This document shows positions 1 to 37,212 of a DNA stretch of 38,593 nucleotides, piece after piece. Position 1 is the stretch's first letter; each line of letters begins with the position of its first letter. A model generated the notes under the pieces. The model had not been told where the DNA came from, made no database searches, and saw only the letters and a program-made list of their open reading frames with translations. The position numbers and the translations under genes were made by a program. This stretch comes from a virus (Duplodnaviria; Heunggongvirae; Uroviricota; Caudoviricetes), in the IMG/VR virus record IMGVR_UViG_2778261460_000002; one strand, written 5' to 3'.

Positions 1-1053
1 TTACGGGGTAATGCCAACCGCTGCCGCCACTTTGTCGCCACTTGGCAGCGTTGCCAGAGGATTGAAACGGAGCGCCGTTTCCAGATGATCCGGTGCCAGA
101 TGTGCGTAACGCATAGTCATTTTTATATCGTGGTGTCCGAGAATTTTTTGTAAGGCCAGAATGTTTCCACCCGACATCATGAAGTGCGCCGCAAACGTAT
201 GGCGCAGAACGTGTGTGAGTTGACCGCGAGGGAGCACGATAGACGTTTTTTCCATCACGGATAAAAATTGAAAATAGCAGTCTGTGAAGAAATTGAACCC
301 ATCAAGCGCCATGATCTCTTCGTAAAGCTCTTTACTGATAGGGATGCTTCTGTTTTTCTTCCCCTTCGTTCTGACAAAGGTAATTCGGTATTTGGTCACC
401 TGTGAGCGAGTAAGATTTACGGCTTCACGCCAGCGTGCGCCTGTGCTTAAGCATATCTTAACTACCAGTGCCAGAATTGGGTCCTGACGTTTGCAATCAG
501 CCAGCAATTCAACAATCTGCTCATGGGTAAGCCATGCCATCTCTTTTTCTGCGATGGTGAATTTTCGCATGTTCTCCAGTGGGTTCGGATACGACCATTC
601 GCCCAGACGGGATAGTTCGCTAAAAACACTACTTAGATAGCTTTGCTCCAGGTTAATGGTGACCGGGCTTGCTCCTTTCTTCCATTTCTCGCTGAAGTAG
701 ATCTCGCCTGTCAGGCGTTTATCTCGATAGTGGGCAAACATTTTAGAGGTGAGATCGGTTGCAAGAGGATTGCCCAGAGCGTCAACCATCAACAGCAATT
801 TGTCATAGACATGCTGCCCAGCTGTCAGAGATTTACCATGTAGTTTGAACCATAGTTCAACCACGTCTTTCAGTGTTCGACGATCCACTGATTCACCCAG
901 CCAGGGCTTTGCTTCGGTTTCTTCCATCGTGTGACGCTCAAAAGCCAGAGCTTCGCCTTTGGTGGCGAATTGTTTACGCACACGACGTCCACTACGTCCG
1001 GCGGGGTAACATTCGCAAAGCCATTTTCCTGTGGTGAGTTTTCGTACTGCCAT
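1..1053 (-). CDS. int: Phage integrase (tyrosine recombinase), P2/186 Int-like
   Basis: 350-aa ORF with tyrosine-recombinase C-terminal motifs (HVLRHTFA, MRYAHL); sits at the prophage end as in P2/186. Stop codon is at positions 3..1. Confidence 0.9.
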   Translation of the reverse strand: MAVRKLTTGKWLCECYPAGRSGRRVRKQFATKGEALAFERHTMEETEAKPWLGESVDRRTLKDVVELWFKLHGKSLTAGQHVYDKLLLMVDALGNPLATDLTSKMFAHYRDKRLTGEIYFSEKWKKGASPVTINLEQSYLSSVFSELSRLGEWSYPNPLENMRKFTIAEKEMAWLTHEQIVELLADCKRQDPILALVVKICLSTGARWREAVNLTRSQVTKYRITFVRTKGKKNRSIPISKELYEEIMALDGFNFFTDCYFQFLSVMEKTSIVLPRGQLTHVLRHTFAAHFMMSGGNILALQKILGHHDIKMTMRYAHLAPDHLETALRFNPLATLPSGDKVAAAVGITP

Positions 1054-2833: not shown

Positions 2834-3430
2834 TTAATTTGAAACTATTGTACTTCTTATACAAGCAACTACTTCAATATCAGAAAATGCACATTCAAAG
2901 CTATTCTCTGTACTTGTAATTTTAATCATACCTTTTGGAAGCTTTGTGATTTTTCGAATGGAATAGGTTCCGTCGATGTTGATTAACCAGTGCCCATCAA
3001 GTACTTCAGAAAATTTTTGATCACAAATGTATGTGACGAGCCCATCCTGAATAACAATTGGTGATGAAAGATTTGCAGGAAGAAATGATGAATCGAAGAC
3101 ATATGAACCATCTTCAATCATTTTGCCTGCGGTAAGGCGAAACTTGGCAAGCTCTTCTGTAGCTGCTGTCAGCGAGCTTTGCTTAAGGCCTTGCCCGGTG
3201 GTTAACCATTTCAGTGAGGTTCCTGTTTCAAGAGCACATTGGATTATCCAGTCTGCAGGAAACGTATCCCGCAAATACCTGTTCGCCAGAGTGCTTTTTG
3301 ATACTTCCAAGTGATCAGCTAAAGCCTGTCGTGTCGTAAAGCCATAAGCTTCGACTAATCGCTCAATCGCAGCCTTACCACCTTTATTGGGATTTATTTT
3401 GATCTCATTTGGGTACTTTGATGTTGACAT
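2834..3430 (-). CDS. cI: Immunity repressor, phage 186 CI-like
   Basis: 198-aa ORF divergent from the apl/cII lytic operon; N-terminal helix-turn-helix-like region, size and position match 186 CI. Confidence 0.7.
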   Translation of the reverse strand: MSTSKYPNEIKINPNKGGKAAIERLVEAYGFTTRQALADHLEVSKSTLANRYLRDTFPADWIIQCALETGTSLKWLTTGQGLKQSSLTAATEELAKFRLTAGKMIEDGSYVFDSSFLPANLSSPIVIQDGLVTYICDQKFSEVLDGHWLINIDGTYSIRKITKLPKGMIKITSTENSFECAFSDIEVVACIRSTIVSN

Positions 3431-5330: not shown

Positions 5331-6184
5331 GCACCATCTTGAAATGGGCGGGAAATAAAACCGCCGTAATGTCCGAACTGAAAAAACATCTTCCTGCTGG
5401 TCCGCGACTAGTTGAACCTTTCGCGGGTTCCTGTGCTGTGATGATGGAGACGGATTATCCCTGCTATCTGGTTGCGGATATTAATCCTGATTTAATCAAC
5501 CTCTATAAAAAGGTTGCCGCTGATTGTGAATCGTTTATATCTCGCGCCAAAGTTTTATTTGAGATCGCAAACAGGGAGGTGGCTTATTACAACATAAGGC
5601 AGGAGTTTAATTACTCAACTGAAATTACTGATTTCATGAAAGCGGTATATTTCCTGTATCTCAATCGTCACGGTTACCGTGGGTTATGTCGCTATAACAA
5701 GAGCGGGCATTTCAACATTCCCTACGGTAATTATAAAAATCCGTATTTCCCTGAAAAAGAAATTCGCGCTTTTGCAGAAAAAGCCCAGCGAGCAACGTTT
5801 ATCTGCGCCAGCTTTGATGAAACGCTGGCGATGTTGAAGGCGGGGGATGTGGTGTATTGCGATCCGCCTTATGACGGTACGTTTTCCGGCTATCACGCTG
5901 ACGGCTTTACTGAAGATGACCAGTATCACCTGGCATCCGTTCTTGAACATCGGTCATCAGAAGGACATCCGGTCATTGTTTCTAACAGTGACACATCCCT
6001 GATCCGTTCGCTGTATCGCAATTTTACTCACCACTATATCAAGGTAAAACGCAGCATCGGCGTAGCAGCTGGTGAGAGTAAATCAGCAACAGAAATCATT
6101 GCTGTTTCCGGGCCGCGCTGCTGGGTGGGATTTGATTATTCGCGTGGCGTGGATAGTTCTGCCGTGTACGGAGTACGTGCATGA
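5327..6184 (+). CDS. dam: DNA adenine methyltransferase (Dam-like, N6-adenine, probable GATC specificity)
   Basis: 285-aa product from ATG 5327 ([11 protein letters not shown]...); N-terminal AdoMet-binding region (EPFAGSCAV) and catalytic DPPY motif; ATGA overlap with the upstream stop. Confidence 0.75.
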
Positions 6185-8595
6185 GCCATGCCGATATGAG
6201 CAACTGCTGCGGCTTTAACGAGGCTGCCGCATCGTTCTCATGGAACAGTCCGAAAAAGGCCATTAACCCTTATCTGGACCCGGCGGAAGTTGCGCCGGTT
6301 TCTGCGCTTTCAAACCTGATCACTCTGTACGCTGCCGATAACGAGCAGGAACAACTGCGCCGCGAGGCACTGAGTGATCAGGTCTGGGAGCGTTATTTCT
6401 TTAATGAATCCCGTGATCCTGTCCAACGCGAAATAGAGCAGGATAAGCTCATTAGCCGGGCAAAGTTGGCGCATGAGCAGCAGCGTTTTAACCCGGACAT
6501 GGTCATTCTGGCAGACGTCAGCGCCCAGCCCTCCCATATCAGCAAGCCGCTGATGCAACGTATTGAATACTTCAGCAGCCTGGGCAGGCCAAAGGCTTAT
6601 TCCCGCTATTTACGTGAGACGATTAAGCCATGTCTGGAACGACTGGAGCATGTACGCGACAGCCAGCTATCTGCATCTTTTCGTTTTATGGCAAGCCATG
6701 TAGGGCTGGACGGCCTGCTGATTCTGCCTGAAATGAGTCAGGATCAGGTGAAACGCCTGTCTACCCTTGTCGCTGCGCATATGAGCATGTGCCTTGATGC
6801 AGCTTGTGGTGATTTGTATGCCACCGATGACGTTAAGCCAGAAGAAATCCGCAAGACATGGGAAAAGGTGGCAGCGGAAACCCTGCGTCTGGATGTCATC
6901 CCGCCTGCGTTTGAGCAACTCCGTCGGAAAAGAAACCGCCGTAAACCCGTGCCCTATGAACTCATTCCGGGTTCGCTGGCGCGTATGTTGTGCGCCGACT
7001 GGTGGTACCGGAAATTATGGAAAATGCGTTGCGAATGGCGGGAAGAGCAGTTGCGTGCTGTCTGCCTGGTCAGCAAAAAAGCATCTCCCTATGTCAGCTA
7101 TGAAGCCGTGATGCATAAACGTGAGCAGCGCCGCAAGTCACTGGAGTTTTTCCGTTCTCATGAACTGGTGAACGAAGAGGGCGACACGCTGGATATGGAA
7201 GACGTGGTAAACGCCAGCAGCAGCAACCCGGCGCACCGCCGCAATGAGATGATGGCCTGTGTTAAAGGTCTGGAGCTTATCGCGGAAATGCGCGGTGACT
7301 GCGCCGTTTTCTACACCATTACCTGTCCGTCACGTTTCCATTCCACGCTCAATAACGGCAGACCAAACCCAACCTGGACAAATGCGACGGTAAGACAAAG
7401 CAGCGATTATCTGGTCGGCATGTTTGCTGCATTTCGTAAGGCGATGCACAAAGCCGGGTTGCGCTGGTATGGCGTGCGGGTGGCTGAGCCGCATCATGAC
7501 GGTACAGTTCACTGGCACCTGTTGTGTTTCATGCGCAAAAAAGACCGCCGCGCCATTACTGCATTGTTGCGTAAGTTTGCCATCCGTGAAGACCGCGAGG
7601 AACTGGGTAATAACACTGGTCCACGCTTTAAATCTGAGCTGATAAACCCGCGCAAAGGAACGCCGACAAGCTACATCGCGAAATACATCAGTAAGAACAT
7701 TGACGGGCGTGGTCTGGCTGGCGAGATCAGCAAGGAAACGGGTAAATCCCTGCGTGATAACGCTGAATACGTTAATGCCTGGGCGTCTCTGCATCGTGTT
7801 CAGCAATTCCGCTTCTTTGGTATTCCGGGACGTCAGGCTTACCGTGAACTTCGCTTGCTGGCTGGTCAGGCGGCAAGGCAACAGGGTGACAAAAAAGCAG
7901 GTGCGCCGGTACTGGATAACCCGCGTCTTGATGCCATTCTGGCTGCTGCTGATGCTGGTTGTTTTGCCACCTACATCATGAAGCAGGGCGGCGTACTGGT
8001 TCCCCGCAAATATCACCTCATCAGAACCGCTTATGAAATCAACGAAGAGCCAACCGCCTATGGCGATCACGGTATTCGTATTTATGGCATCTGGTCACCC
8101 ATTGCAGAGGGCAAGATCTGCACTCATGCAGTGAAGTGGAAAATGGTTCGTAAGGCCGTTGACGTTCAGGAGGCGGCAGCCGACCAGGGCGCTTGCGCCC
8201 CTTGGACTCGTGGCAATAACTGTCCCCTTGCTGAAAATTTGAACCAACAGGAGAAAGATAAATCAGCTGATGGAGACACCAGAACGGACATTACCCGCAT
8301 GGATGACAAGGAGTTGCACGATTACCTGCACAGTATGAGCAAAAAAGAGCGCCGGGAACTGGCAGCAAGGTTACGCCAGGTGAAGCCGAAAAGGCGTAAA
8401 GACTACAAACAGCGAATTACAGATCATCAGCATCAGCAGCTCGTCTATGAACTGAAGTCCAGAGGATTTGATGGCAGCGAGAAAGAGGTCGATTTACTCC
8501 TTCGCGGTGGCAGTATTCCGTCAGGAGCAGGCCTGCGTATTTTCTATCGGAACCAGCGTTTGCAGGAAGATGATAAGTGGCGGAACCTGTATTAA
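6181..8595 (+). CDS. Replication initiation protein A (P2 gpA / 186 replication endonuclease-like)
   Basis: 804-aa ORF after the early operon; size and position match P2 A; ATGA overlap with dam stop. Confidence 0.8.
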
Positions 8596-8689
8596 TTACG
8601 CGGGTTAACAATTCGTGCTCTTAATAATACCAGGCATATCAGGCTGATGAACGTAAAAAAACGTTTTACATCAGTAAGATTATTATATA

Positions 8690-8705
8690 CTGTAAATATA
8701 AACAG
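8690..8705 (+). promoter_or_regulatory. LexA (SOS) box CTGTAAATATAAACAG
   Basis: Exact match to the CTGT-N8-ACAG LexA operator consensus, about 45 nt upstream of the tum-like start, inside an AT-rich promoter-like region. Confidence 0.7.
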
Positions 8706-8748
8706 TGTTTATGCATACAGTATTGTTTGTGGTGTCATAGGAGGAAAG

Positions 8749-8937
8749 ATGCAGGACTATTTTTTGGAGTCTTTGAAGCTCCAGCGCATTGATTTTTTTC
8801 TTAAGCTTGTAGCGGCTAGTGAGTGTAGTGATGAAGAGAAGGGGCTGGCTCTGCAGTGGGTTTCTGAATTGACTGATGAACTCATGGCAAAAATCAGAAG
8901 CCACGAATACAACCGCTCAATGGATGTCATCAGCTGA
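8749..8937 (+). CDS. Small SOS-regulated protein, candidate Tum-like antirepressor
   Basis: 62-aa product from ATG 8749 with AGGAGG RBS (8739-8744); directly downstream of the LexA box; position matches the 186 tum locus. Confidence 0.45.
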   Translation: MQDYFLESLKLQRIDFFLKLVAASECSDEEKGLALQWVSELTDELMAKIRSHEYNRSMDVIS

Positions 8938-8947
8938 GGTGACTTTT

Positions 8948-9181
8948 ATGCGCATTGAAATAATGATCGATAAAGAGCAGAAGATTAGCCAGTCTACCCT
9001 GGACGCTCTGGAGTCCGAGCTTTACCGCAACCTGCAACCCATCTATCCCAAGACAGCTATCCGCATCCGTAAAGGGTCGGCAAACGGCGTTGAGCTGAGT
9101 GGCTTAAAGCTTGATGAAGACAAAAAGCGGGTGATGGAAATTATGCAGCAGGTTTGGGAAGACGACAGATGGCTGCACTAA
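8948..9181 (+). CDS. DinI-family protein
   Basis: 77-aa product MRIEIMIDKEQK...IMQQVWEDDRWLH aligns by eye with E. coli DinI (MRIEVTIAK ... ILQETWE ... W); second gene in the LexA-boxed operon. Confidence 0.65.
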   Translation: MRIEIMIDKEQKISQSTLDALESELYRNLQPIYPKTAIRIRKGSANGVELSGLKLDEDKKRVMEIMQQVWEDDRWLH

Positions 9182-9254
9182 GGAACGTTCCTGATGTAAG
9201 AACTTGATTCTGACGTCAGCAAGGTTGAACAACGAGAGTAGCGAGGCGTTAGCC

Positions 9255-9515
9255 ATGGGTAAAAAAGACAGTAATCACCAGATTATTTATCGGGGCCAGG
9301 TGCTGGAACGGTTTACCCCTGGCGGCTGGGTCTTCTTTCAACGCCCAAAGGAGTGTGGCGGAGGTTTTTAGTTGGGCCGCACCTATGAAGACTGCTTCTG
9401 GCTTGAGCTGGAATTCCCCGTTTCGCTATATGACGGCCTGGAGTTTTTGATGGAAGTCACCAGGGTAGAGCAGAGAAGTGATGAGGTTGACGCGAATTAT
9501 TCCCTGTTTGATTAA
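9255..9515 (+). pseudogene. Small ORF interrupted by an in-frame amber codon (TAG at 9369-9371); probable pseudogene
   Basis: ATG at 9255 opens 38 codons, TAG, then the same frame stays open for 47 more codons to TAA at 9513-9515. Confidence 0.3.
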
Positions 9516-9534
9516 AAATGTATTAGCTTATAAT
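9507..9534 (+). promoter_or_regulatory. Putative sigma70 promoter for the 203-aa gene (-35 TTTGAT/TTGATT, -10 TATAAT at 9529-9534)
   Basis: Perfect -10 hexamer with a plausible -35 at 15-16 bp spacing, about 30 nt upstream of the ATG at 9564. Confidence 0.4.
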
Positions 9535-9563
9535 GGAATACTATTTTTGCAGGTGGGGGCGCA

Positions 9564-10175
9564 ATGGATTTAGTCTTTAAAATTCTGGCTTCGTTGGGTG
9601 GGGTGTCTTTTGTTGCATCTGGCATATTTGTTTGGATCGGGAAAGTTTATTTAGAAAGATATAAGTCGCGGCTAAACAAAGATATTGCTGAATTTCAATC
9701 ACAACTGAGTGCAACTAATGAAAGAATAAAGGCTAAGTTAGACAATTCTGTTTATGTAACGAAAGCGTATTTTGATAAGGAGTTATCAGCATATAGTCTC
9801 ATTTGGAATTCGATGTTTGAAACCAGAGAAAGCGTGCTTAAGCTGAGGCCTGCGCTGGATCATTTTGACCCCAACGAACCATTTGAAGAGAGAAAATTTA
9901 GAAGGTTGAAAGTTTTTTTCGATGCATTTAATACTTTTGTTACAAGTGTTGAGTCTAACAAACCGTTCATCTCACCAGAGGTTTATATAATCTTGGACCG
10001 TTTCCGGAAGGAATGCCTTTCAGAGTCAATATCGTTTCAGCATGGCGATCCAGAATTTGACTGGCAAAATTATTGGAAAGAGGCAGAGTTGAACCGTACA
10101 ACCATCACCAAGCTTTTTGATGAGACGTGTGATGCAATTCGAGACAGGATGCACACATTAACTGTGGTTACGTAG
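9564..10175 (+). CDS. Single-pass membrane protein of unknown function; accessory cargo in the old/tin-equivalent position
   Basis: 203-aa ORF with N-terminal hydrophobic helix (ILASLGGVSFVASGIFVWIG) and a soluble domain with no recognisable motifs; AT-rich; own promoter and terminator. Confidence 0.6.
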   Translation: MDLVFKILASLGGVSFVASGIFVWIGKVYLERYKSRLNKDIAEFQSQLSATNERIKAKLDNSVYVTKAYFDKELSAYSLIWNSMFETRESVLKLRPALDHFDPNEPFEERKFRRLKVFFDAFNTFVTSVESNKPFISPEVYIILDRFRKECLSESISFQHGDPEFDWQNYWKEAELNRTTITKLFDETCDAIRDRMHTLTVVT

Positions 10176-10266
10176 TTTTCCAAAAAGTCTCGATGCCCGC
10201 TTTGGCGATTGTGCATGTCTATGCCGCATGAATCCGCATGATCGTTTGAGGATCGTTTTAGCTGAG

Positions 10267-10290
10267 GCCCGCTAGGAATGGCGGGCTTTT
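10267..10290 (+). terminator. Rho-independent terminator (gcccgc-loop-gcgggc-tttt)
   Basis: Perfect 6-bp GC stem with 8-nt loop followed by TTTT, about 90 nt downstream of the 203-aa gene. Confidence 0.55.
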
Positions 10291-10335
10291 GCTTATGTCA
10301 TGCAGGCGCATGAAAACCACTACATAAAGCGGGCA

Positions 10336-10354
10336 GGCGTGGCGGGGATACGAG
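10336..10354. other. Probable cos site (cohesive-end region) GGCGTGGCGGGGATACGAG
   Basis: Matches from memory the start of the P2/186 cohesive end (GGCG[A/T]GGCGGGGA...), with a GCGCGCT tract after it as in P2; lies between the replication side and the portal gene. Not verified by alignment. Confidence 0.45.
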
Positions 10355-10367
10355 CGCGCGCTCATGG

Positions 10368-10396
10368 TTGAATTAATGAAATTATGGTGTTAAATA
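10368..10396 (+). promoter_or_regulatory. Putative sigma70 promoter for the 232-aa gene: -35 TTGAAT (10368-10373), 17-bp spacer, extended -10 TGtTAAATA (10388-10396)
   Basis: Read directly from the sequence; about 70 nt upstream of the ATG at 10465, which has a GGGAGGAG RBS. Confidence 0.45.
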
Positions 10397-10464
10397 GGCT
10401 AGCTTTTTAAGTCGTGAATATTCAATTTTTCAACTCATTTTTTTCATAGGGAGGAGTAATTGAC

Positions 10465-11163
10465 ATGGTTATGTTAGTGGATGACTGTCCACGATGTGGA
10501 TCACAAAAAATAGCGTTTGATGTTAATGGGCTGAATTGCACTAGGGTTTACAATGCATTGGGCGGGGGTAAAACATACGAGTACGAGGTCTATTGTGTTT
10601 GCCGAGAGTGTCATAAAACGACAATGTTTCTTTGCAGACCTTTAACGAAAAATAAAACTTTAGATGGCTATAATTGGAAAAGTGGAATATTCGGCTTAAA
10701 GGAAGTTGCAGAGGTTGTTAGGCCTATATCACCGGCAGACTTAGCAGTAGAGGAGCCACCAGAGTTCTTACCTGAGCATATCAATAGTGCATATGAGGAA
10801 GGGGCGAAATGTTTGGCTATAGGTTGTTATAATGCAGCAGCAACCATGTTTAGGCTTTGCCTTGATTATGCCACAAAAGGACTTCTTCCTGATGGGGAGC
10901 AAGGGCCTGCGCAAAAAATAAGGAGAAGCCTAGGGTTAAGAATGGAGTGGTTATTTGATAATCATCTACTGCCTGAAGCTTTAAGGGAACTAGCTGAATG
11001 CGTTAAAGATGACGGAAATGATGGAGCGCATGAAGGTATTTTGGATAAAGCTGCTGCTGAGGATCTTGAAGATTTTACCTATCTTTTTTTAGAACGGCTT
11101 TACACTGAACCTCAACGCCTTATCGAAGCCAAGACAAGGCGTGAACAAAGAAGAAACAAATAA
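10465..11163 (+). CDS. Zinc-ribbon protein with DUF4145/HEPN-like C-terminal domain; accessory cargo between cos and the portal gene
   Basis: 232-aa ORF; N-terminal CPRC-x35-CRECH Cys cluster; C-terminal helical region with GNDGAHEG resembling the RN..AHG motif of DUF4145 as recalled (arginine replaced). AT-rich, own promoter. Confidence 0.55.
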   Translation: MVMLVDDCPRCGSQKIAFDVNGLNCTRVYNALGGGKTYEYEVYCVCRECHKTTMFLCRPLTKNKTLDGYNWKSGIFGLKEVAEVVRPISPADLAVEEPPEFLPEHINSAYEEGAKCLAIGCYNAAATMFRLCLDYATKGLLPDGEQGPAQKIRRSLGLRMEWLFDNHLLPEALRELAECVKDDGNDGAHEGILDKAAAEDLEDFTYLFLERLYTEPQRLIEAKTRREQRRNK

Positions 11164-19083: not shown

Positions 19084-19480
19084 TAAAGCAGTGCCTTATG
19101 TCCGTAATAACCCGGACAAACTGCATCTGTTTGTGGATAACGGTTCGCTGGTTGCCACGGGGGCCAGCTCCATGTCATGGGAGTACCGCTACACCCTGAA
19201 CGTGGTGATAGAGGATTTCAGTGGTGACCAGAATCTGTTGATGGCCCCGGTTTTGCTGTGGCTGCGTGATAACCAGCCCGATGCCATCAATAATCCCGCT
19301 TTACGGGAAAAGTTATTCACCTTTGAGGTGGATATTCTGCGCAACGATGTCTGTGATATCAGCCTTAACCTGCAACTGACGGAACGTGTGCTGGTCAGCA
19401 CTGACGGCACAGTGTCCAGCGTTGAAGCTGTAGCGGAACCCGATGAACCTGAAGAAATGTGGACGGTGAAACGTGGCTGA
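19049..19480 (+). CDS. Tail completion protein R (P2 gpR-like)
   Basis: GTG start at 19049 with AGGAG RBS; product begins MNKPQSLRHALNKAV, resembling the P2 gpR N-terminus as recalled. Confidence 0.65.
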   Translation: MNKPQSLRHALNKAVPYVRNNPDKLHLFVDNGSLVATGASSMSWEYRYTLNVVIEDFSGDQNLLMAPVLLWLRDNQPDAINNPALREKLFTFEVDILRNDVCDISLNLQLTERVLVSTDGTVSSVEAVAEPDEPEEMWTVKRG

Positions 19481-19919
19481 ATTGCAGAAGGTGGACGACT
19501 GGCTGAGTGCCTTGCTGGCGAATCTGGAGCCAGCCGCAAGAAGCCGTATGATGCGCCAACTGGCGCAGGAACTTCGCCGGACACAGCAGCAGAATATCAG
19601 GATGCAGCGCAACCCTGACGGCAGCAGCTATGAACCGCGACGGGTAACAGCACGCAGTAAAAAAGGCCGCATTAAACGTCAGATGTTTGCGAAGCTGCGC
19701 ACCACAAAATACCTGAAAACTGCCGCCAGCGCCGATTCTGCCAGCGTGCAGTTTGAAGGCAAGGTGCAGCGCATTGCCCGCGTTCATCACTACGGCCTGC
19801 GTGATCGCGTCAGTCGCAAAGGACCTGAGGTCCGTTACGCAGAGCGTAAGCTATTGGGTATCCACGATAAAGAATATTATCAAATCAAGGATACCCTATT
19901 TGAATGGTTATCTAAATAA
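19473..19919 (+). CDS. Tail completion protein S (P2 gpS-like)
   Basis: 148-aa ORF after R; start overlaps the R stop. Confidence 0.65.
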   Translation: MAELQKVDDWLSALLANLEPAARSRMMRQLAQELRRTQQQNIRMQRNPDGSSYEPRRVTARSKKGRIKRQMFAKLRTTKYLKTAASADSASVQFEGKVQRIARVHHYGLRDRVSRKGPEVRYAERKLLGIHDKEYYQIKDTLFEWLSK

Positions 19920-19920
19920 T

Positions 19921-19941
19921 ATAAAAATACATCTGTATTTT
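19921..19941. terminator. Bidirectional hairpin (aaaaataca / tgtattttt) between convergent S and the AriB-like gene
   Basis: 9-bp perfect inverted repeat with A-run on one side and T-run on the other. Confidence 0.45.
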
Positions 19942-19944
19942 TTC

Positions 19945-20796
19945 TTATTTCATTTCGTGTGGCATATTTATGGCTTTAATTTTTTCGTGGTAATGATTAA
20001 ACTCAATATGAGCATTGGTAAAATTAGATTCAAATGTATTCATTAAATTGGAATATAATGATTCATATGATAAGGATACTTTTTTTCCATTTTTTTCTGC
20101 AGTTGTGCTAATGTACCTATGTACTGCAGAAAAAAGAAAATGACCTCTAAGCCACTTTCTGTATTCTATCGATTTTGATTTGAAAGATGAATCGATGTTA
20201 TCTGGTTCCACACCTAATTTTTCAATGATGGTGTTTTTGTAACTCGTGATTTTTTGCTCGCAAATTTCATTTGATTTTCTAGATTTCATGAAACGATCTG
20301 CACTGTCACCAATAACTGAAATGCCTTTTCTATAAATATGATTGTATATATCAAGTTTTATTAGGGGTTCCATTTTGGTATAAAAGTCTTCTGTCCAAGA
20401 ATCGACGTTGACATCGTTCATTATCTTTTGAGGTAATTTTCCGAGAGTTTTTATTGCCTTATATATGCCTGTTTTGTCAATAAACGTGTTTTCGATGGAG
20501 TGCCCATAAGTTTTTACAATGCGACTATCAGCGTTTTCCTCATTTTCAAATGTAGTGAAGTCTGCATCACATGCAATTATAATTTGAAGATCTTCATCAG
20601 TAACTCTATCAATATATTTTTTTAATTCTTCACAGCCGCCAACATCTTTGATTTCAACCTTTAATGAACTAGCTTTATTAAAGATGATTTCCCAAAAGCA
20701 AATATCATCTGGGCCTTCAACATAAACCATGGCTTCAGCTTGGTAAAATAAATTCATTACATTTTCTGCTTCGGCAGAATAATGGAAATCATCCAT
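19945..20796 (-). CDS. DUF4435/Toprim-like nuclease, PARIS AriB-like (OLD-family Toprim fold)
   Basis: Open frame extends to 20880 (311 aa). The ATG at 20796 overlaps the upstream stop as ATGGATGA, so 283 aa is more likely. Toprim-like acidic motifs YVEGPDD and IIACDADF. Very AT-rich. Confidence 0.55.
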   Translation of the reverse strand: MDDFHYSAEAENVMNLFYQAEAMVYVEGPDDICFWEIIFNKASSLKVEIKDVGGCEELKKYIDRVTDEDLQIIIACDADFTTFENEENADSRIVKTYGHSIENTFIDKTGIYKAIKTLGKLPQKIMNDVNVDSWTEDFYTKMEPLIKLDIYNHIYRKGISVIGDSADRFMKSRKSNEICEQKITSYKNTIIEKLGVEPDNIDSSFKSKSIEYRKWLRGHFLFSAVHRYISTTAEKNGKKVSLSYESLYSNLMNTFESNFTNAHIEFNHYHEKIKAINMPHEMK

Positions 20797-22048
20797 GAAC
20801 CAATTTCTCCATATCAAAGATTGCATTTCGATATTTAGAAGCCACTTCTGGTGAATGCGTAGCGGCGATAATTTGCGCATTAGGATTAAGTTGTTTGATT
20901 GCAGGTATTATTTTTCGTTGCCATGCAATATGTAGCGATAATTCTGGTTCATCAGTAAGATAGATGAAAGGTTTGTTTTGCTGTAGCAAAGTTTCAATAA
21001 AAAGAATTAATAGCTGTTTTTCACCAGACGATAAATTACTATGGCTAATCGGCCCATGCTCGTTTTCTATTACTAGCTCACCGGAGATAAAATTAAATTT
21101 TTTATCGGTTATGAACTCATGTAATGTTTCTAAAAATAGATTTATAGGAAGAAATATGTTTTTTATTTTCTCCTCGGATTTTAAAGACATCTTTATAATT
21201 CTTTGCGTCTTTCGTAATGCCTCAAATGATCTGTAATCTACATTTAAAATATTTCTGTTATTTTTTTCTGCAAGTCGTAATTCTTCAAATGTTTTGGCAA
21301 TAGATTCAACGTGAAAGTTAATCTTCTTTCTGACATCACTATCAAAAGCTCCAAGCTGAGAATATGCAGCTATTAAATTTCTACGTTCTTTTTCTTTATC
21401 AAAAGAAAAGTTAAATGTGTCATCGATACCATCTTCTTTACTATAAAGAATAGAAGCAAGAACCTCTTTCTGTAATATTGCAGAAACATCACGAGCTCTT
21501 TGTGATAAATAAAGTTGATATTTTGTTAGGTTCTGCAATAATTGTTCTAATCGGTAATCAACAGGGTTGATTAATTTTGAGCCATATTTGTCTCTGATTT
21601 CAAAATCTTCACCGCTTCTAAGTCGGTAAACTGATAGAGAAGATAAAGCAACTAATTTATCTAACTCTAATTTAAGTTTTTCAACGTCTTCCTGATATTT
21701 TCTCCTCATATAAATAGGTAGTCTACGATCTTCAAAGGATCTGATAATATATTTCTTTCTAGAAATTGTATATTCAAACGTAGGCAAAGCTTTAGTTATG
21801 TCAAATTTACTCACAACTTTTATTGTTTTAGTTTTGCTTCCTTCTTTTATTTTTATTGTTACATTATCAAAACTATTCTCATTTAGTGATTCGAGTTCTA
21901 ATGCCAGAACTGAGTGAAGAATATTCATAAAGGTTGTTTTACCGGTCCCATTTCGACCAATAATAATATTTACATCTTCATTAAATGAACATGATGCATT
22001 TAGTCTTCCCCAAAAACCTTCAATCTTGACACTAGATAATCTAAACAT
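20789..22048 (-). CDS. ABC-type ATPase (AAA_15/AAA_21-like), PARIS AriA-like
   Basis: 419 aa; Walker A GRNGTGKTT, Walker B-like IYLTDEPE, H-loop AATHSPEV; translationally coupled to the downstream DUF4435 gene. Confidence 0.6.
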   Translation of the reverse strand: MFRLSSVKIEGFWGRLNASCSFNEDVNIIIGRNGTGKTTFMNILHSVLALELESLNENSFDNVTIKIKEGSKTKTIKVVSKFDITKALPTFEYTISRKKYIIRSFEDRRLPIYMRRKYQEDVEKLKLELDKLVALSSLSVYRLRSGEDFEIRDKYGSKLINPVDYRLEQLLQNLTKYQLYLSQRARDVSAILQKEVLASILYSKEDGIDDTFNFSFDKEKERRNLIAAYSQLGAFDSDVRKKINFHVESIAKTFEELRLAEKNNRNILNVDYRSFEALRKTQRIIKMSLKSEEKIKNIFLPINLFLETLHEFITDKKFNFISGELVIENEHGPISHSNLSSGEKQLLILFIETLLQQNKPFIYLTDEPELSLHIAWQRKIIPAIKQLNPNAQIIAATHSPEVASKYRNAIFDMEKLVHG

Positions 22049-22084
22049 AGGAATCCTTTATTTAGTCCATGAGTAAATGCACTT

Positions 22085-22102
22085 TGTATCATAACTGGCA
22101 CA
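22085..22102 (+). promoter_or_regulatory. P2-type late promoter activator site TGT-N12-ACA upstream of V
   Basis: TGT atcataactggc ACA, 47 nt upstream of the V ATG. Confidence 0.4.
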
Positions 22103-22148
22103 AAACTAAAGAGTTTTTTTATCAATCTTATCTCGGCATGATTAAATT

Positions 22149-22727
22149 ATGAACGCACAATTAACCGAAATCATGCGCCTTATCACCAACCTGATCCGCA
22201 CTGGTGTAGTCACCGAAGTGGACCGGGAACACTGGCTTTGTCGGGTGAAAACGGGCGACCTTGAAACCAACTGGATTAACTGGCTGACGCTGCGCGCGGG
22301 TAATGCCCGCACATGGTGGCGACCATCGGAAGGTGAGCAGGTGGTGCTGCTGAGTCTGGGCGGCAATCTGGAAACCGCCTTTGCGCTGCCCGCTGTCTAT
22401 TCGAATCAGTTCGCACCACCGTCGGCGTCGGTGGACGCCTGTGTGACAGAACATCCTGACGGTGGCTGGTTTGAATACGAACCCGCTACCGGGCGCTGGT
22501 ATGTCAGGGGAATCAAATCCATGGTCATTGAAGCTGCCGACAACATCACCCTGAAAACCAGTGAGTTTGTACTGGAGGCTGACCGCACACGCATTAACAG
22601 CGAAGTAGTGATCAATGGTGGTGTTACCCAGGGCGGCGGTGCAATGAGTTCTAACGGAATTGTGGTTGATGCACATCAGCATACTGGCGTCCTGAAAGGC
22701 GGCGACACAACCGGAGGCCCGGTATGA
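22149..22727 (+). CDS. Baseplate assembly protein V (spike)
   Basis: 192-aa ORF; resembles P2 gpV as recalled (conserved RAGN-RTWW-PS-GEQV region). Confidence 0.75.
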   Translation: MNAQLTEIMRLITNLIRTGVVTEVDREHWLCRVKTGDLETNWINWLTLRAGNARTWWRPSEGEQVVLLSLGGNLETAFALPAVYSNQFAPPSASVDACVTEHPDGGWFEYEPATGRWYVRGIKSMVIEAADNITLKTSEFVLEADRTRINSEVVINGGVTQGGGAMSSNGIVVDAHQHTGVLKGGDTTGGPV

Positions 22728-25917: not shown

Positions 25918-26346
25918 ATGTACGTATGGAGCGCTAAATCAAATGGCTTTTTCCCCATATCGGAGAAAGAAAAATTTGAGGCATCAGGTCTGTGGCCTGA
26001 TGATGGTGTAATAGTCAGTGAGGAAGAACATAAAAAGTTATTTATGGATATTCCACCAGGAAAACAGATTGGAACACTGAATGGAAAACCAGCACTGATA
26101 GATATTCCTCAGCCGACCAAAAAGGAATTAATAGCTATTGCTGAAGTTAAAAAATCCCAATTACGGGAAAAAGCTGACAGTGAAATATCCTGGCGTCAGG
26201 ATGCTGTTGATGCTGATATCGCAACTGATGAAGAAACTTCAACTCTCACCGAATGGAAGAAATACCGTGTGCTGCTGATGCGTGTTGATACTTCAACAGC
26301 ACCCGATATTGAATGGCCTACGCCTCCGGCAGTTCAGGCCAGATGA
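25918..26346 (+). CDS. Tail fibre assembly protein (P2 gpG / Tfa-like), current-orientation copy
   Basis: 142 aa, C-terminal [13 protein letters not shown] shared with the inverted copy. Confidence 0.7.
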
Positions 26347-26911
26347 CATCCGGCGCGGTGCTGGTATCTGTTGCCGTCACCGCGTCAATGTAATCCAGCA
26401 CGGTGTTAAGTCGGGTTGTTTCTGCCTGAGTCAGTTTCCGTCCGGCCTGTAATTTCAGCTGAATCAGACTAATGGAAGCCATTACTGCATCAATCAGTGA
26501 CTGGCGCTGTGCTTCTGCTGCTTCTACTGCGGCACCGTGTTGTGCCTCAGTATCTGTCACCCATTTCTCACCATCCCATTTATCATATGGCGTTAACGGT
26601 GAAAGCGTGACATAACCGTTTTTGATGGCACCGATATAATCCACTGTAACAGCTGCGCCATTTTCTGTTGAGTAAACAGTCTCATTGCGATGGTCTTCTT
26701 CATGGCTCCATCCCTTACCCGTAAATACTGCCACTTTCCCCGGAATGTTTTCGCCCGGGTCAATACCAGTGGAACAGGCGGGCATACTTACGCCAGTATT
26801 AATATATTCATCAGACCAGCCCGTATATTCAGACGTTACTGCATCATAATAAAAACAACGCATATCACCCGGCACTGTAGCCAGTCCATTTTCATCAAAA
26901 ACAGGTTTCAT
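26318..26911 (-). CDS. Alternative tail fibre assembly protein (Tfa'), inverted-orientation copy
   Basis: 197 aa on the minus strand, C-terminal [14 protein letters not shown]. Confidence 0.65.
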
Positions 26912-27408
26912 TATTTAGCCCTCACCAGAAAGTTAAATGCAATATTTCGCGGTCTGACAGCAACAAAATTCACACCATCACCCACAGAGTTACTGGTGAA
27001 ATTAAATCGTGAAAATCCTGGCTGATTTCCGGCGATGCCATCATGAAAGTTAATTGCGTGTCCCGCACCTCCGCCTATATTCCCGGCAAACTGAGAAAAG
27101 TTTGTAGCTTCCTGCCAGCTTAATAATTCGCGACCACCGTCTGCACCTCGCCCGTCATCCCAGATACGAATGAAATCACCGCGGGCTTCAGGTAATATCA
27201 GCGAAGGAAACACTTTCGCCAGCACAGGATAATCAGTGGCAGAGAATTTCGCGCCGTTGAACTTCAAAAACACCATACTGGACCAGCTGTCGATTACAGT
27301 ATTTGGCATTGCAGCGGACGGCCAGAAGAACGGAACGCCAATAGCTGGAGCACCTTCTCCCAAACCAACGTTTATGAAAATGCAGAGATAACGGCTAACT
27401 GGCATCAT
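26911..27408 (-). CDS. Alternative tail-fibre C-terminal cassette (H'), promoterless, expressed only after inversion
   Basis: Minus-strand frame open through the right hix-like site; my frame arithmetic shows it joins H in frame after inversion about the 2-bp cores. Confidence 0.55.
   Translation of the reverse strand: MMPVSRYLCIFINVGLGEGAPAIGVPFFWPSAAMPNTVIDSWSSMVFLKFNGAKFSATDYPVLAKVFPSLILPEARGDFIRIWDDGRGADGGRELLSWQEATNFSQFAGNIGGGAGHAINFHDGIAGNQPGFSRFNFTSNSVGDGVNFVAVRPRNIAFNFLVRAK
27355..27380 (+). repeat. hix/gix-like 26-bp recombination site (right, inverted): TTCTCCCAAACC AA CGTTTATGAAAA
   Basis: Reverse complement TTTTCATAAACG TT GGTTTGGGAGAA aligns with the left site at about 21 of 26 positions with the same TT core. 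Confidence 0.55.
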
Positions 27409-27435
27409 CCCCGGTTTTTATTCAGGGGATTGATC

Positions 27436-28002
27436 ATGCTTATTGGCTATGTACGCGTGTCAACAAATGACCAGAACACCGATTTGCAACGTAATGCACT
27501 GAACTGCGCGGGATGTGAGCGGATTTTTGAGGACAAAATCAGTGGCACTAAGTCCGACAGACCGGGGCTGAAAAAACTACTCAGGACACTATCGGCAGGA
27601 GACACGCTGGTTGTCTGGAAGCTGGACAGGTTGGGGCGCAGTATGCGGCATCTTGTTACGCTGATAGAAGAGTTGCGCCAGCGTGGTGTGAATTTCAGAA
27701 GCCTGACTGACAGTATTGATACCAGTACCCCAATGGGCCGTTTCTTTTTTCATGTCATGGGTGCCCTGGCTGAAATGGAACGCGAACTGATAGTTGAACG
27801 TACCAGGGCAGGGCTGGCTGCAGCTCGTGCCAAAGGCAGAGTAGGTGGACGCCGTCCTAAGTTGACCACCGAACAGTGGGCACAGATTGGGCGTTTACTC
27901 GAGGCCGGAGAATCAAGACAGCGTATTGCACTGATTTTTGATGTAGGCGTTTCTACCATTTATAGAAAATTTCCGGCAAATAAGATCAATGAATCCCCCT
28001 GA
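27436..28002 (+). CDS. Serine recombinase, DNA invertase of the Hin/Gin/Cin/Pin family
   Basis: 188-aa product from ATG 27436 (MLIGYVRVSTNDQ...); catalytic serine context YVRVST, C-terminal helix-turn-helix; adjacent to the invertible segment. Confidence 0.85.
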   Translation: MLIGYVRVSTNDQNTDLQRNALNCAGCERIFEDKISGTKSDRPGLKKLLRTLSAGDTLVVWKLDRLGRSMRHLVTLIEELRQRGVNFRSLTDSIDTSTPMGRFFFHVMGALAEMERELIVERTRAGLAAARAKGRVGGRRPKLTTEQWAQIGRLLEAGESRQRIALIFDVGVSTIYRKFPANKINESP

Positions 28003-35291: not shown

Positions 35292-35370
35292 CTCTGCCGC
35301 CAATTTGTCGCCATCGTTAAAAAACACTGCTTCTAACATCATGATTTTAAAAGGCATAAATTTCAGGCAA

Positions 35371-35414
35371 CAAAAAACCCATCAACCTTGAACCGAAATG
35401 GCGGGGTTGATGGG
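35371..35414 (-). terminator. Rho-independent terminator for ybjL (stem cccatcaacc/ggttgatggg then U-run on the minus strand)
   Basis: 10-bp perfect inverted repeat; minus-strand transcript ends with UUUUUUG; about 115 nt downstream of the ybjL stop. Confidence 0.5.
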
Positions 35415-35526
35415 CTCCACAAAATGGGGACATCAAAGAAAAGCAGTGGCACTAATTAAGACTGATGCCCTGCGGAAAAGTTCTGCGGTTGTGCAAAAAA
35501 ATTTCATTTTCAGGGCAACTTCAGTT

Positions 35527-37212
35527 TTATCCTAATCCTGGCCATACCATGACGATGATTGTCCCTGCCAGCGTCAGCAGGACGTTGGCGATTGCGTAGG
35601 TGCCCGCATAGCCCAGCGCAGGGATGTTACTGCGAGCTGTATCACTGATGATCTCCATTGCCGGCGCGCAGGTGCGTGCGCCCATCATTGCGCCGAACAA
35701 CAGTGCGCGGTTCATTCGCAATACATAAGCACCGAACAAGAAACAGATAACCACGGGCACAAGACTGACAATTAATCCGGCAATCAACATCTGACCGCCA
35801 ATCGCGCCCAGGCCGTTATTAATACCGCTACCGGCGCTCAGACCAACGCCTGCCATAAACACCATCAAGCCGAACTCTTTCACCATGCTTAATGCACCTT
35901 GCGGAATGTAACCGAAGGTCGGGTGGTTAGCACGCATAAAGCCCAGCATAATTCCGGCGAATAACAACCCGGCAGCGTTCCCCATGCCGAAACTGAATGT
36001 GCTGAACTGGAAGGTGATCATCCCGATCATCAGCCCAATAACAAAGAAGGCGCAAAATGCCAGCAGGTCAGTGACCTGGCTGTGAATCGAGATAAAGCCG
36101 ATGCGATCGGCGATGGTTTTTACGCGACGGGCATCACCGCTGACTTGTAAAACGTCACCTTTGTTAAGCACGACGTTGTCATCTATCGGCATCTCAATCT
36201 GGCTACGAATGACGCGGTTAAGGAAGCAACCGTGATCGGTCAACTTCAGTTGTGCGAGACGTTTACCTACAGCGTTATGGTTTTTAACGACCACTTCTTC
36301 AGTGACGATACGCATGTCGAGAAGGTCACGATCGAAAACTTCTTTACCGTTACGGAAGCTGGGATCGAGTCGGGCATGGGCGTCGGGATAGCCTACCAAC
36401 GCTATTTCATCGCCCATTTGTAGCACGGCATCACCGTCTGGATTTGCAAGAATCCCGTTACGTCGAATACGTTCAATGTAGCAGCCGGTTTGTCGATAAA
36501 TACCCAGTTCACGCAGATTTTTGCCGTCGGTCCAGGCCACGAGCTCCGGGCCGACGCGATAGGCGCGGATCACCGGTAAATAAACCTTACGGTTGGCATC
36601 AGTGTCCAGGCCACGTTCGCGGGCGATTTGCTGGGCGCTGGTCTGTAAGTCCTGATGCTGCAATTTCGGCAAGTAACGCGCACCAACAATCAAACTCACC
36701 AGACCGATTAAATAGGTTAAGGCATACCCGAGGCTCAGATTATCCAGTGCCAGTGAGAGCTGCCTGCTTTCCATGCCGGAATGACGCAGTGTATCGCCAG
36801 CACCGACCAGAACCGGTGTCGACGTCATAGAGCCTGCTAACATACCGGCCGTCAGGCCAATATCCCAGCCAAACAGCTTACCTAACCCTAAGGCGATCAC
36901 CAGCGCACTGCCAACCATCACCAGTGCTAACATTAGGTAATTTTTCCCATCGCGAAAAAAAATGGAAAAAAAGTTCGGTCCGGCTTCGACCCCGACGCAG
37001 AAAATAAACAGCATAAAGCCAAGATTAAGCGCATCGGTGTTAATGCTGAAATGTTGTTGGCCTAATAACAGCGATACGACTAAAACGCCAATGGAATTAC
37101 CCAGTTGGATCGAACCAAGTCGTAACTTTCCGAGACATAGCCCAAGCGCGAGGACCACAAATAATAACAGAATGTAATTCCCATTTAACAATTCGGCGAC
37201 GTTTATATTCAC
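35527..37212 (-). CDS. ybjL: Putative transport protein YbjL (AAE-family transporter)
   Basis: 561-aa polytopic membrane protein with two membrane domains flanking a cytoplasmic region; matches E. coli YbjL as recalled. Confidence 0.85.

What the first reader, a model, noticed from the sequence alone, without database searches (positions are those of the whole stretch)
19945..22048. PARIS-like ABC ATPase plus DUF4435/Toprim pair inserted between tail gene S and the V promoter
Two very AT-rich, translationally coupled minus-strand genes (ATGGATGA overlap) interrupt the late structural region. The upstream product is an ABC-type ATPase with Walker A/B and H-loop; the downstream product has Toprim-like acidic motifs consistent with DUF4435. 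This two-gene architecture matches the PARIS system (AriA/AriB), which senses phage anti-restriction proteins and triggers abortive infection; related OLD/AbiL-type pairs are alternatives. As far as I know, the S-V junction is not one of the recognised P2 hotspots.
Basis: partly seen in the sequence, partly recalled or inferred. Interest (0 to 1): 0.68.

Follow-up and report, generated by a model that had tools for sequence, protein, structure and literature searches.

The report
PARIS defence pair in P2 prophage
Two AT-rich genes between tail genes S and V of a P2-like E. coli prophage form a divergent but intact PARIS (AriA/AriB) anti-phage system, and the site they occupy is a known cargo-swapping spot, so the finding is real but ordinary.

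Summary
Two overlapping minus-strand genes (ariA 20789..22048, ariB 19945..20796; GC ~0.31 against ~0.55 in the flanks) lie between gpS and gpV of a P2/186-like prophage.

The PARIS reading is supported:
- Best PADLOC hits are AriA and AriB.
- Both genes pass the Pfam rule used to define PARIS.
- The Walker A/B, signature and H-loop residues of AriA and the five Toprim acidic residues of AriB are invariant in their families.
- AlphaFold models match solved AriA and AriB chains best in the PDB.

The proteins are only 16-20% identical to the characterised E. coli B185 system. Trigger and RNA target are therefore inferred, not shown.

P2 itself carries orf30 there, and the literature calls it one of three moron regions. 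In an evenly spread sample of 60 of 1,070 E. coli records, about half of the S-V junctions hold varied defence-like cargo.

This PARIS clade sits at S-V in every E. coli allele class inspected and in 17 of 30 viral contigs. The swapped module (19846..22147) includes the gpS C-terminus and the V promoter.

Verdict: a new member of a known kind, of low to moderate interest.

The parts
20789..22048 (-). ariA: 419-aa ABC/SMC-type ATPase, the sensor and scaffold subunit of PARIS
   Evidence: Pfam AAA_21 8.2e-23 and AAA_15 1.6e-17. Best PADLOC model is AriA, 5.7e-40. Best PDB sequence hit is AriA 8ux9/8v45, 6e-17. The top 14 Foldseek PDB hits of the AF2 model (pLDDT 82) are all AriA chains, E 4e-18 to 4.5e-15, TM 0.57-0.66; the next hit is retron PtuA at 2.4e-12. 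K37, LSSGEKQ, D366/E367 and H398 are invariant in 48 homologues.
19945..20796 (-). ariB: 283-aa DUF4435/Toprim nuclease, the effector subunit of PARIS
   Evidence: Pfam DUF4435 1.1e-25. PADLOC AriB 2.3e-24. E27, D31, D77, D79 and E102 are invariant in 50 homologues and correspond to B185 AriB E26/D30/D88/E90/E122 (PMC11464382). The best Foldseek PDB hits of the AF2 model (pLDDT 93) are AriB 8ux9_A and 8v46_D (prob 1.0, TM 0.54), followed by OLD C-terminal regions.
20789..20796 (-). ATGGATGA overlap of the ariA stop and the ariB start (translational coupling)
   Evidence: Read directly from the sequence. The same 8-nt overlap is annotated in phage ON470620.1, and overlaps of 8-14 nt are annotated in the homologous loci.
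22049..22148 (.). AT-rich divergent control region holding the V late promoter and, by inference, the ariA promoter
   Evidence: This is the 100 bp between the ariA ATG and the V ATG. Its sequence is cargo-specific apart from the TGT-N12-ACA element. The consensus scan found no strong sigma-70 promoter here. By eye there is a TATGAT -10-like hexamer on the minus strand, which is inference only.
22085..22102 (+). TGT-N12-ACA late-activator (Ogr-type) site of the V promoter, 64 nt before the V ATG
   Evidence: Unique match. The same element lies at -64/-65 in the empty-site phage and in two other PARIS alleles. The same motif sits upstream of O/P (14019) and FI (28051), where P2 has its late promoters.
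19846..22147 (.). The swapped cargo module of the S-V hotspot: gpS C-terminal ~24 codons, ariB, ariA and the V promoter
   Evidence: Homology breakpoints fall at 19844-19847 and 22148-22150 against an empty-site phage, a Septu-like cargo and other PARIS alleles on backbones 93-96% identical in these flanks. The GC step coincides. No flanking direct or inverted repeats were found.
19923..19942 (.). Weak A/U-rich hairpin between the S stop and the ariB stop, a possible bidirectional terminator
   Evidence: An 8-bp stem with U-runs on both strands, -5.5 and -6.9 kcal/mol, z -1.8 and -3.3. The terminator scan did not call it. P2 has its O-operon terminator at the equivalent place.
19473..19919 (+). 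gpS (tail completion), the left flank; its last ~24 codons belong to the variable module
   Evidence: Pfam Phage_tail_S 4.9e-41. The C-terminal sequence after ...YAER(K/R)LLG differs with each cargo type.
22149..22727 (+). gpV (baseplate spike), the right flank
   Evidence: Annotated as baseplate assembly protein V in identical loci. Homology to other phages resumes at its start codon.

Best explanation
This is a PARIS-family (AriA/AriB) abortive-infection system. A P2/186-like temperate phage carries it as accessory cargo in the orf30 (S-V) moron hotspot, antisense to the late genes, so it can be expressed from the prophage. Shown here are the identity of the two proteins, intact catalytic residues, folds matching solved AriA and AriB, purifying selection, and the hotspot context. 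The mechanism is inferred from the characterised E. coli B185 system (PMC11464382, PMC10802264, PMC12409363). In that system AriA assembles into an ATP-dependent hexameric scaffold that sequesters AriB in an inactive form. A protein of an invading phage, such as the DNA mimic Ocr, binds AriA and releases AriB. AriB then dimerises and its Toprim site cleaves host tRNAs. Translation stops and the infection aborts, which protects the lysogen population and the resident prophage from competing phages. The trigger and the RNA target of this divergent clade are unknown.
For: Profiles: the best PADLOC hits are AriA (5.7e-40) and AriB (2.3e-24). The Pfam scores of AAA_21 82 bits, AAA_15 65 bits and DUF4435 91 bits exceed the thresholds Rousset et al. 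used to define PARIS, which are 27, 32 and 27 (PMC9122126).

Residues: AriA K37, D366/E367, the signature motif and H398 are invariant. AriB E27, D31, D77, D79 and E102 are invariant and match the B185 catalytic set.

Folds: the AriB model best matches AriB 8ux9_A and 8v46_D. The top 14 hits of the AriA model are AriA chains, about six orders of magnitude ahead of PtuA.

Architecture: ariA lies upstream and overlaps ariB by 8 nt.

Selection: pN 0.09-0.35 against pS 0.71-0.80 between alleles.

Context: antisense, low-GC cargo at a site that in other E. coli prophages holds SIR2, GmrSD/DUF262, AAA+HNH, AIPR and other defence-type genes. The same module is present in an isolated phage, vB_EcoM-813R9.
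Against: There are no functional data. Identity to the characterised B185 proteins is only 16-20%. A 50-sequence AriB profile does not find B185 AriB in the PDB by sequence. TM-scores are moderate (0.54-0.66). The lysines that hold the tRNA anticodon loop in B185 AriB (K60, K64) have only partly conserved basic counterparts here, so tRNA specificity, or even the substrate class, could differ. No convincing sigma-70 promoter was found upstream of ariA.
Confidence: 0.8

Rival explanations
1. It is an ATPase plus Toprim pair that resembles PARIS in architecture but works like OLD or Gabija. In this reading the released or activated Toprim nuclease nicks or degrades DNA rather than tRNA, or it responds to a different kind of signal than an anti-restriction protein.
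For: After AriB, the next-best structural matches of the AriB model are the OLD C-terminal Toprim regions 6njw and 6nk8, and GajA 8x5i. Pfam gives a weak OLD-like_TOPRIM match, 0.13. This AriB clade cannot be linked to B185 AriB by sequence. The tRNA-gripping lysine positions are variable.
Against: AriB chains are clearly the best fold match (1e-5 against 7e-3 for OLD) and cover the whole protein, not only the Toprim core. DUF4435 is matched end to end. OLD and GajA fuse the ATPase and Toprim in one polypeptide, and Gabija needs a GajB helicase that is absent here.
Confidence: 0.12
2. It is mainly a toxin-antitoxin-type addiction module that stabilises the cargo or the prophage, with AriB as toxin and AriA as antitoxin, and it gives no meaningful anti-phage protection.
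For: PDB depositors label AriA an antitoxin. Pfam AAA_21 is described as a putative AbiEii/type IV TA domain. The module persists across many alleles at one site.
Against: The characterised PARIS systems defend against T7, T5, lambda and T4 (PMC9122126, PMC11464382). The site is otherwise filled with defence-type cargo and is empty in about half of the prophages, which does not suggest an addictive element.
Confidence: 0.05
3. It is a decaying, non-functional remnant of horizontally acquired DNA.
For: One related locus (E. coli S56) has both genes annotated in two fragments each.
Against: Both ORFs here are full length relative to their families (419 aa against 414-436; 283 aa against 277-285). 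All catalytic residues are intact. pN is far below pS. The module is 99.7-99.9% identical in 18 complete genomes from unrelated sources.
Confidence: 0.03

Closest known systems
PARIS (AriA/AriB) of E. coli B185, carried by a P4-like satellite (Rousset 2022; Burman 2024; Deep 2024; PDB 8ux9, 8v45-8v49)
   Same: It is a two-gene operon with the ABC ATPase upstream of a DUF4435/Toprim protein. The Walker A Lys, the Walker B Glu and the five Toprim acidic residues are conserved. Both predicted folds best match the solved subunits. It is carried by a mobile viral element in a diversity hotspot.
   Different: Identity is only 16-20%. AriA is 419 aa against 464 aa, and AriB is 283 aa against about 306 aa. 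AriB cannot be linked by sequence search to the solved chain. The carrier is a P2-like phage at the S-V late-gene junction, not the P4 int-psu hotspot. Trigger and target have not been tested. A basic cluster (R108 R109 ... R115 R116 K117, of which R109 and R116 are at least 90% conserved) aligns weakly with the B185 central-pore R116/R119.
P2 orf30 / the S-V moron region of P2-like phages (Nilsson and Haggard-Ljungquist; PMC3091744, PMC6823313)
   Same: The position is identical (between the S stop with its O-operon terminator and the V promoter activator site). The orientation is antisense, the GC content is low, and the cargo is non-essential and replaceable.
   Different: P2 orf30 is a single 261-aa protein with no Pfam match. 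Here the cargo is a two-gene PARIS system.
P2 Old and class 1/2 OLD nucleases; Gabija GajA
   Same: They combine an ABC-type ATPase with a Toprim nuclease and are used for phage exclusion. Old is itself P2 cargo.
   Different: In OLD and GajA the two domains are fused in one polypeptide, and GajA needs the GajB helicase. Here they are separate, translationally coupled genes with no third gene. The fold match to OLD is limited to the Toprim core.
Septu / retron PtuA-PtuB
   Same: PtuA is the next-closest ATPase family. A PtuA-like ATPase plus HNH pair occupies the same S-V site in another E. coli prophage.
   Different: The partner here is a Toprim/DUF4435 protein, not an HNH nuclease.
Lactococcal AbiL (AbiLi/AbiLii)
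   Same: It is an ABC ATPase plus Toprim/OLD-like two-gene abortive infection system, grouped with PARIS in PMC13064643.
   Different: That review reports no significant sequence similarity between AbiLii and AriB. For the second protein, PADLOC returned only AriB, AriAB and mad4 models.

Membership tests
PARIS (AriA/AriB) | Adjacent genes matching Pfam AAA_15 (at least 32 bits) or AAA_21 (at least 27 bits) and DUF4435 (at least 27 bits), the detection rule of Rousset et al. 2022 | tested here: met
   AAA_21 82.3 bits, AAA_15 64.6 bits, DUF4435 91.3 bits. The rule is quoted from PMC9122126. The best PADLOC models are AriA and AriB.
PARIS (AriA/AriB) | AriA ATPase catalytic residues (B185 K39 in Walker A, E393 in Walker B) | tested here: met
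   K37 and D366/E367, together with LSSGEKQ and H398, are invariant in 48 homologues. The B185 residues are taken from PMC11464382.
PARIS (AriA/AriB) | AriB Toprim metal-binding acidic residues (B185 E26, D30, D88, E90, E122) | tested here: met
   E27, D31, D77, D79 and E102 are invariant in 50 homologues.
PARIS (AriA/AriB) | Folds of both subunits resemble the solved AriA and AriB | tested here: met
   The AriB model hits 8ux9_A and 8v46_D first (prob 1.0, TM 0.54). The AriA model hits 14 AriA chains first (E down to 4e-18, TM up to 0.66). The TM-scores are moderate.
PARIS (AriA/AriB) | AriA hexamer sequesters three AriB subunits | not testable with these tools
   No multimer prediction or biochemistry was available.
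PARIS (AriA/AriB) | Activation by a phage anti-restriction or DNA-mimic protein (Ocr and others), leading to growth arrest | not testable with these tools
   This needs phage challenge and trigger co-expression.
PARIS (AriA/AriB) | Released AriB cleaves specific host tRNAs (Lys-UUU, Thr-UGU, Asn-GUU in B185) | not testable with these tools
   Only indirect evidence exists: basic residues near the B185 K60/K64 positions are partly conserved (position 64 is R or K in 36 of 50 sequences).
OLD family nucleases (class 1/2) | ATPase and Toprim domains in a single polypeptide | tested here: not met
   There are two separate ORFs with an 8-nt overlap. The OLD-like_TOPRIM Pfam match is below threshold (13.3 against 23.2 bits).
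Gabija | GajA (fused ATPase-Toprim) with a GajB UvrD-like helicase | tested here: not met
   No third gene lies between S and V. GajA is a distant fold hit only (E 0.16).
Septu (PtuA/PtuB) | ATPase partnered with an HNH nuclease | tested here: not met
   The partner is DUF4435, with no HNH match.
AbiL | Sequence similarity to AbiLi and AbiLii | not tested
   No AbiL sequences were compared directly. No AbiL model appears among the four PADLOC hits of the second protein.
P2-like phage moron hotspot (orf30 site) | Variable, low-GC, antisense cargo between conserved genes S and V, with alternative contents or none in related phages | tested here: met
   P2 orf30 lies at the same place. In a spread sample of 60 of 1,070 E. 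coli records, 28 sites were empty and about 30 held at least 12 cargo types. The breakpoints recur. Literature.

The most novel reading that the evidence does not exclude
The S-V-resident AriA/AriB clade may be a distinct PARIS subtype. Its effector evolves fast (44-70% identity where AriA keeps 64-86%) and may have a different RNA target or trigger from B185 PARIS. Its cassette may also be wired into the phage's own late control: the module brings its own gpS C-terminal tail and its own V promoter, and the only good -10-like hexamer for ariA (TATGAT, minus strand) lies inside the TGT-N12-ACA late-activator site. Binding of the phage's Ogr-type activator could therefore switch PARIS off during the carrier phage's own lytic cycle.
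Probability: 0.12. Interest if true: 0.55.

Novelty: new member of a known kind. Interest (0 to 1): 0.25.

Why it matters
The finding adds a well-documented example of PARIS carried by a helper-type P2-like phage, where the characterised systems came from P4 satellites. It also shows that the long-known orf30 site between late genes S and V behaves as a true defence-cargo hotspot with fixed recombination boundaries. These boundaries cut into an essential gene (S) and include a late promoter. This divergent clade would be a useful comparator for asking which PARIS features, such as trigger sensing and tRNA choice, are general. It does not reveal a new kind of system: standard defence-annotation tools would label it PARIS.

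Tried and rejected
1. Sequence search of AriB against the PDB, both as a single sequence and as a 50-sequence profile, found no AriB. Only the fold search linked them.

2. The consensus promoter and terminator scan found no sigma-70 promoter upstream of ariA and no terminator at the S/ariB boundary. Only a weak A/U hairpin is present.

3. I looked for direct or inverted repeats flanking the module, as a sign of a transposon or a site-specific insertion. None was found. Recurrent breakpoints inside conserved flanking sequence point to homologous cassette exchange instead.

4. I considered that the module co-diverged vertically with the phage backbone, because core genes of L004 are 79-88% and the cargo 73-76% identical in nucleotides. 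I rejected this as unproven. Synonymous sites in the cargo are saturated (pS 0.72-0.80) while S and V show pS 0.41-0.53. Backbones whose S-V flanks are 95-96% identical to the window's carry a 62%/44%-identical allele.

5. NCBIfam has no model that names either protein; the best hit, PtuA, scores far below its cut-off.

6. The MADS (mad3/mad4) hits in PADLOC were dismissed because the mad4 match is marginal (0.034) and MADS is a large multi-gene system.

7. The TGT-N12-ACA motif is not enriched window-wide (13 found, 10.4 expected). Its assignment as the V-promoter activator site rests on its position and its conservation across alleles, not on statistics.
Full report
**What is there.**
The window is a P2/186-like prophage. 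Its gene order is integrase 1..1053, CI repressor 2834..3430, gpA 6181..8595, Q, P, O, N, M, L, the lysis genes, R, S, then V, W, J, I, H, G, FI to D. Between gpS (19473..19919, +) and gpV (22149..22727, +) lie two minus-strand ORFs:
- a 419-aa ORF at 20789..22048;
- a second ORF ending at 19945, whose biologically supported start is the ATG at 20796, giving 283 aa.

The two ORFs overlap by 8 nt in the sequence ATGGATGA. GC content falls from about 0.55 to 0.27-0.34 across exactly this interval.

**What the proteins are: the upstream protein (AriA).**
- It matches Pfam AAA_21 (8e-23), AAA_15 (2e-17) and SMC_N.
- Its best PADLOC model is AriA, at 5.7e-40.
- Its best PDB sequence match is AriA of the solved PARIS complex (8ux9/8v45, 6e-17), ahead of retron and Septu PtuA at about 1e-8.
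- In an alignment of 48 homologues, Walker A (G31..G36-K37-T38), the ABC signature LSSGEKQ (339-345), Walker B D366-E367, the D-loop SLH and H398 are all invariant.
- An AlphaFold2 model (pLDDT 82) has AriA chains as its top 14 Foldseek PDB matches (E 4e-18 to 4.5e-15, TM 0.57-0.66). Retron PtuA follows at 2.4e-12 with TM 0.45.

**What the proteins are: the downstream protein (AriB).**
- It matches DUF4435 end to end, at 1.1e-25, and PADLOC AriB at 2.3e-24.
- It finds nothing in the PDB by sequence, either alone or as a 50-sequence profile.
- Its AlphaFold2 model (pLDDT 93) has AriB of the PARIS complex as its best structural matches (8ux9_A, 8v46_D; prob 1.0, TM 0.54, 16% identity). OLD C-terminal Toprim regions and GajA follow.
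- E27, D31, D77, D79 and E102 are invariant in 50 homologues. They correspond to the B185 AriB metal-binding set E26, D30, D88, E90 and E122, and the E26A mutation abolishes defence (PMC11464382).

The pair also satisfies the Pfam-threshold rule by which Rousset et al. defined PARIS (PMC9122126). Comparison with diverged alleles gives pN 0.09-0.35 against saturated pS 0.71-0.80. Both genes are therefore under purifying selection.

**How it most likely works.**
Family membership and intact active sites are shown here. The mechanism is inferred from the B185 system (PMC11464382, PMC10802264, PMC12409363). In that system:
1. AriA forms an ATP-dependent hexameric scaffold that holds AriB inactive.
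2. A protein from an incoming phage, such as Ocr, binds AriA and releases AriB.
3. AriB dimerises and cleaves specific tRNAs.
4. Translation stops and the infection aborts.

A conserved basic cluster in this AriA (consensus DDRR..YRRR; R109 and R116 at least 90% conserved) aligns weakly with the central-pore R116/R119 of B185 AriA. That would fit the sensing of acidic DNA mimics, but the alignment has low confidence. The positions near the tRNA-gripping K60 and K64 of B185 AriB are only partly basic in this clade. Target specificity may therefore differ. Nothing here identifies the trigger.

**Genomic context: the site is a known hotspot.**
P2 itself carries the non-essential, antisense orf30 at exactly this place, between the O-operon terminator and the V-promoter activator site. 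PMC3091744 and PMC6823313 list the TO region, orf30 and Z/fun as the three characteristic moron regions of P2-like phages. A 2026 preprint reports defence hotspots within the P2 late genes.

I sampled 60 records, evenly spread over the 1,070 complete-genome E. coli records that contain this S..V region. Of these, 28 sites were empty. About 30 held at least a dozen different cargoes:
- DUF6216 proteins;
- several hypothetical proteins;
- SIR2;
- DUF262/GmrSD;
- an AAA ATPase with an HNH nuclease;
- AIPR;
- FRG;
- P-loop and Sll1717-type ATPases;
- IS1;
- PARIS.

**Anatomy of the swap.**
Homology breaks at 19844-19847 and resumes at 22148-22150 in five comparisons:
- an empty-site phage;
- a Septu-like cargo;
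- three loci carrying other PARIS alleles, on backbones 93-96% identical to the window in the S-V flanks.

The exchanged module thus begins inside gene S, after the codons for ...YAER(K/R)LLG, and ends at the V start codon. Each cargo brings its own ~22-24-residue gpS C-terminus and its own AT-rich V promoter. These promoters share only a TGT-N12-ACA element, which lies 64-65 nt before the V ATG in the empty-site phage and the PARIS alleles and 78 nt before the V start codon (GTG) in the Septu-like cargo. In the window it is at 22085..22102. The same motif sits at the expected O/P and F late-promoter positions in the window. No flanking repeats were found. Exchange by homologous recombination in the conserved flanks is the simplest reading, and this is an inference.

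**Distribution of this PARIS clade.**
- The exact module (99.7-99.9% identity) is in 18 of 5,426 complete E. coli genomes and in one deposited phage, vB_EcoM-813R9.
- Thirteen further E. coli genomes carry alleles at 65-72% nucleotide identity. Every one I inspected sits at S-V.
- Of 30 IMG/VR viral contigs encoding a relative of this AriB, 17 have it between V and S, 3 between gpA and gpQ (the old/tin hotspot) and 2 beside CI or integrase. The other 8 show no P2 genes nearby.
- Relatives also occur next to the CI repressor of a Yersinia prophage and on a Brenneria mobilisable contig.
- In every pair, AriA is more conserved than AriB: 86/70, 80/65, 64/44, 65/44 and 65/49 % identity.

**Comparison with the known, and verdict.**
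This is a member of the PARIS family by every criterion that could be tested here. It is not an OLD, Gabija or Septu system: the domains are not fused, and there is neither a helicase nor an HNH partner. It is a divergent clade that has not been characterised experimentally, and it lies in a cargo site that was already known. I rate it a new member of a known kind, with interest about 0.25. What remains open is whether this clade has its own trigger or target, and whether the overlap of the ariA promoter region with the late-activator site has regulatory meaning.

Noticed in passing
window 1137..2813 (-): A 558-aa low-GC (0.36) gene between the integrase (1..1053) and the CI repressor (2834..3430). 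It matches PD-Lambda-1 (4.7e-120) and has DUF4041 plus T5orf172/MUG113 domains. This is a second defence cargo in another hotspot of the same prophage.
   Followed up: partly
window 8647..11163 (+): The region between gpA and gpQ (the old/tin or TO hotspot) has lower GC (0.39-0.43). It holds small ORFs, a 203-aa protein with no hits (9564..10175) and a 232-aa DUF4145 protein (10465..11163) with a weak PD-T7-4 match of 1e-6. It is possibly an uncharacterised defence cargo.
   Followed up: partly
window 26318..28002: At the Z/fun position downstream of the tail-fibre genes there is a resolvase-type DNA invertase (27430..28002). It comes with an inverted tail-fibre assembly gene (26318..26911, Caudo_TAP) and a 165-aa ORF. 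This looks like a tail-fibre inversion switch rather than a defence gene.
   Followed up: no
window 35369..35447 (-) and 35527..37212 (-): The sRNA gene rybB (Rfam, 105 bits) and an Asp-Al_Ex/TrkA_C permease lie just past the prophage's right end, so the prophage sits next to rybB. There are no tRNA genes in the window.
   Followed up: no
window 19846..19919 (gpS C-terminus): The last ~22-24 residues of the essential tail protein gpS differ with each cargo type at the hotspot, while the preceding ...YAER(K/R)LLG is conserved. The recombination boundary thus lies inside an essential gene.
   Followed up: partly
L030/L031 (IMG/VR contigs); L013 (E. coli 2014C-3075): In these loci the S-V flanks are 93-96% identical to the window's, yet they carry a PARIS allele only 62-63% (AriA) and 44-45% (AriB) identical at the same site. 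This indicates allele replacement within one hotspot.
   Followed up: partly
L009 (E. coli S56, NZ_CP010242.1 2906543-2908589): A related PARIS pair at the S-V site is annotated as two fragments per gene. This is either pseudogenisation or sequencing frameshifts.
   Followed up: no
L011 (E. coli GDSC2227PM): The 72%-identical PARIS allele sits in a prophage with an internal deletion. A portal-gene fragment and the cox-like regulator directly abut ariB, and S and the head genes are missing. The PD-Lambda-1-like DUF4041 gene is retained.
   Followed up: no
window 22085..22102 / minus strand 22088..22093: The reverse complement of part of the late-activator site (ATCATA) reads TATGAT. This is the only good -10-like hexamer upstream of ariA, and it is also present in the 76%-identical allele of L004. 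It may mean that ariA transcription is coupled to late activation. This is untested.
   Followed up: no
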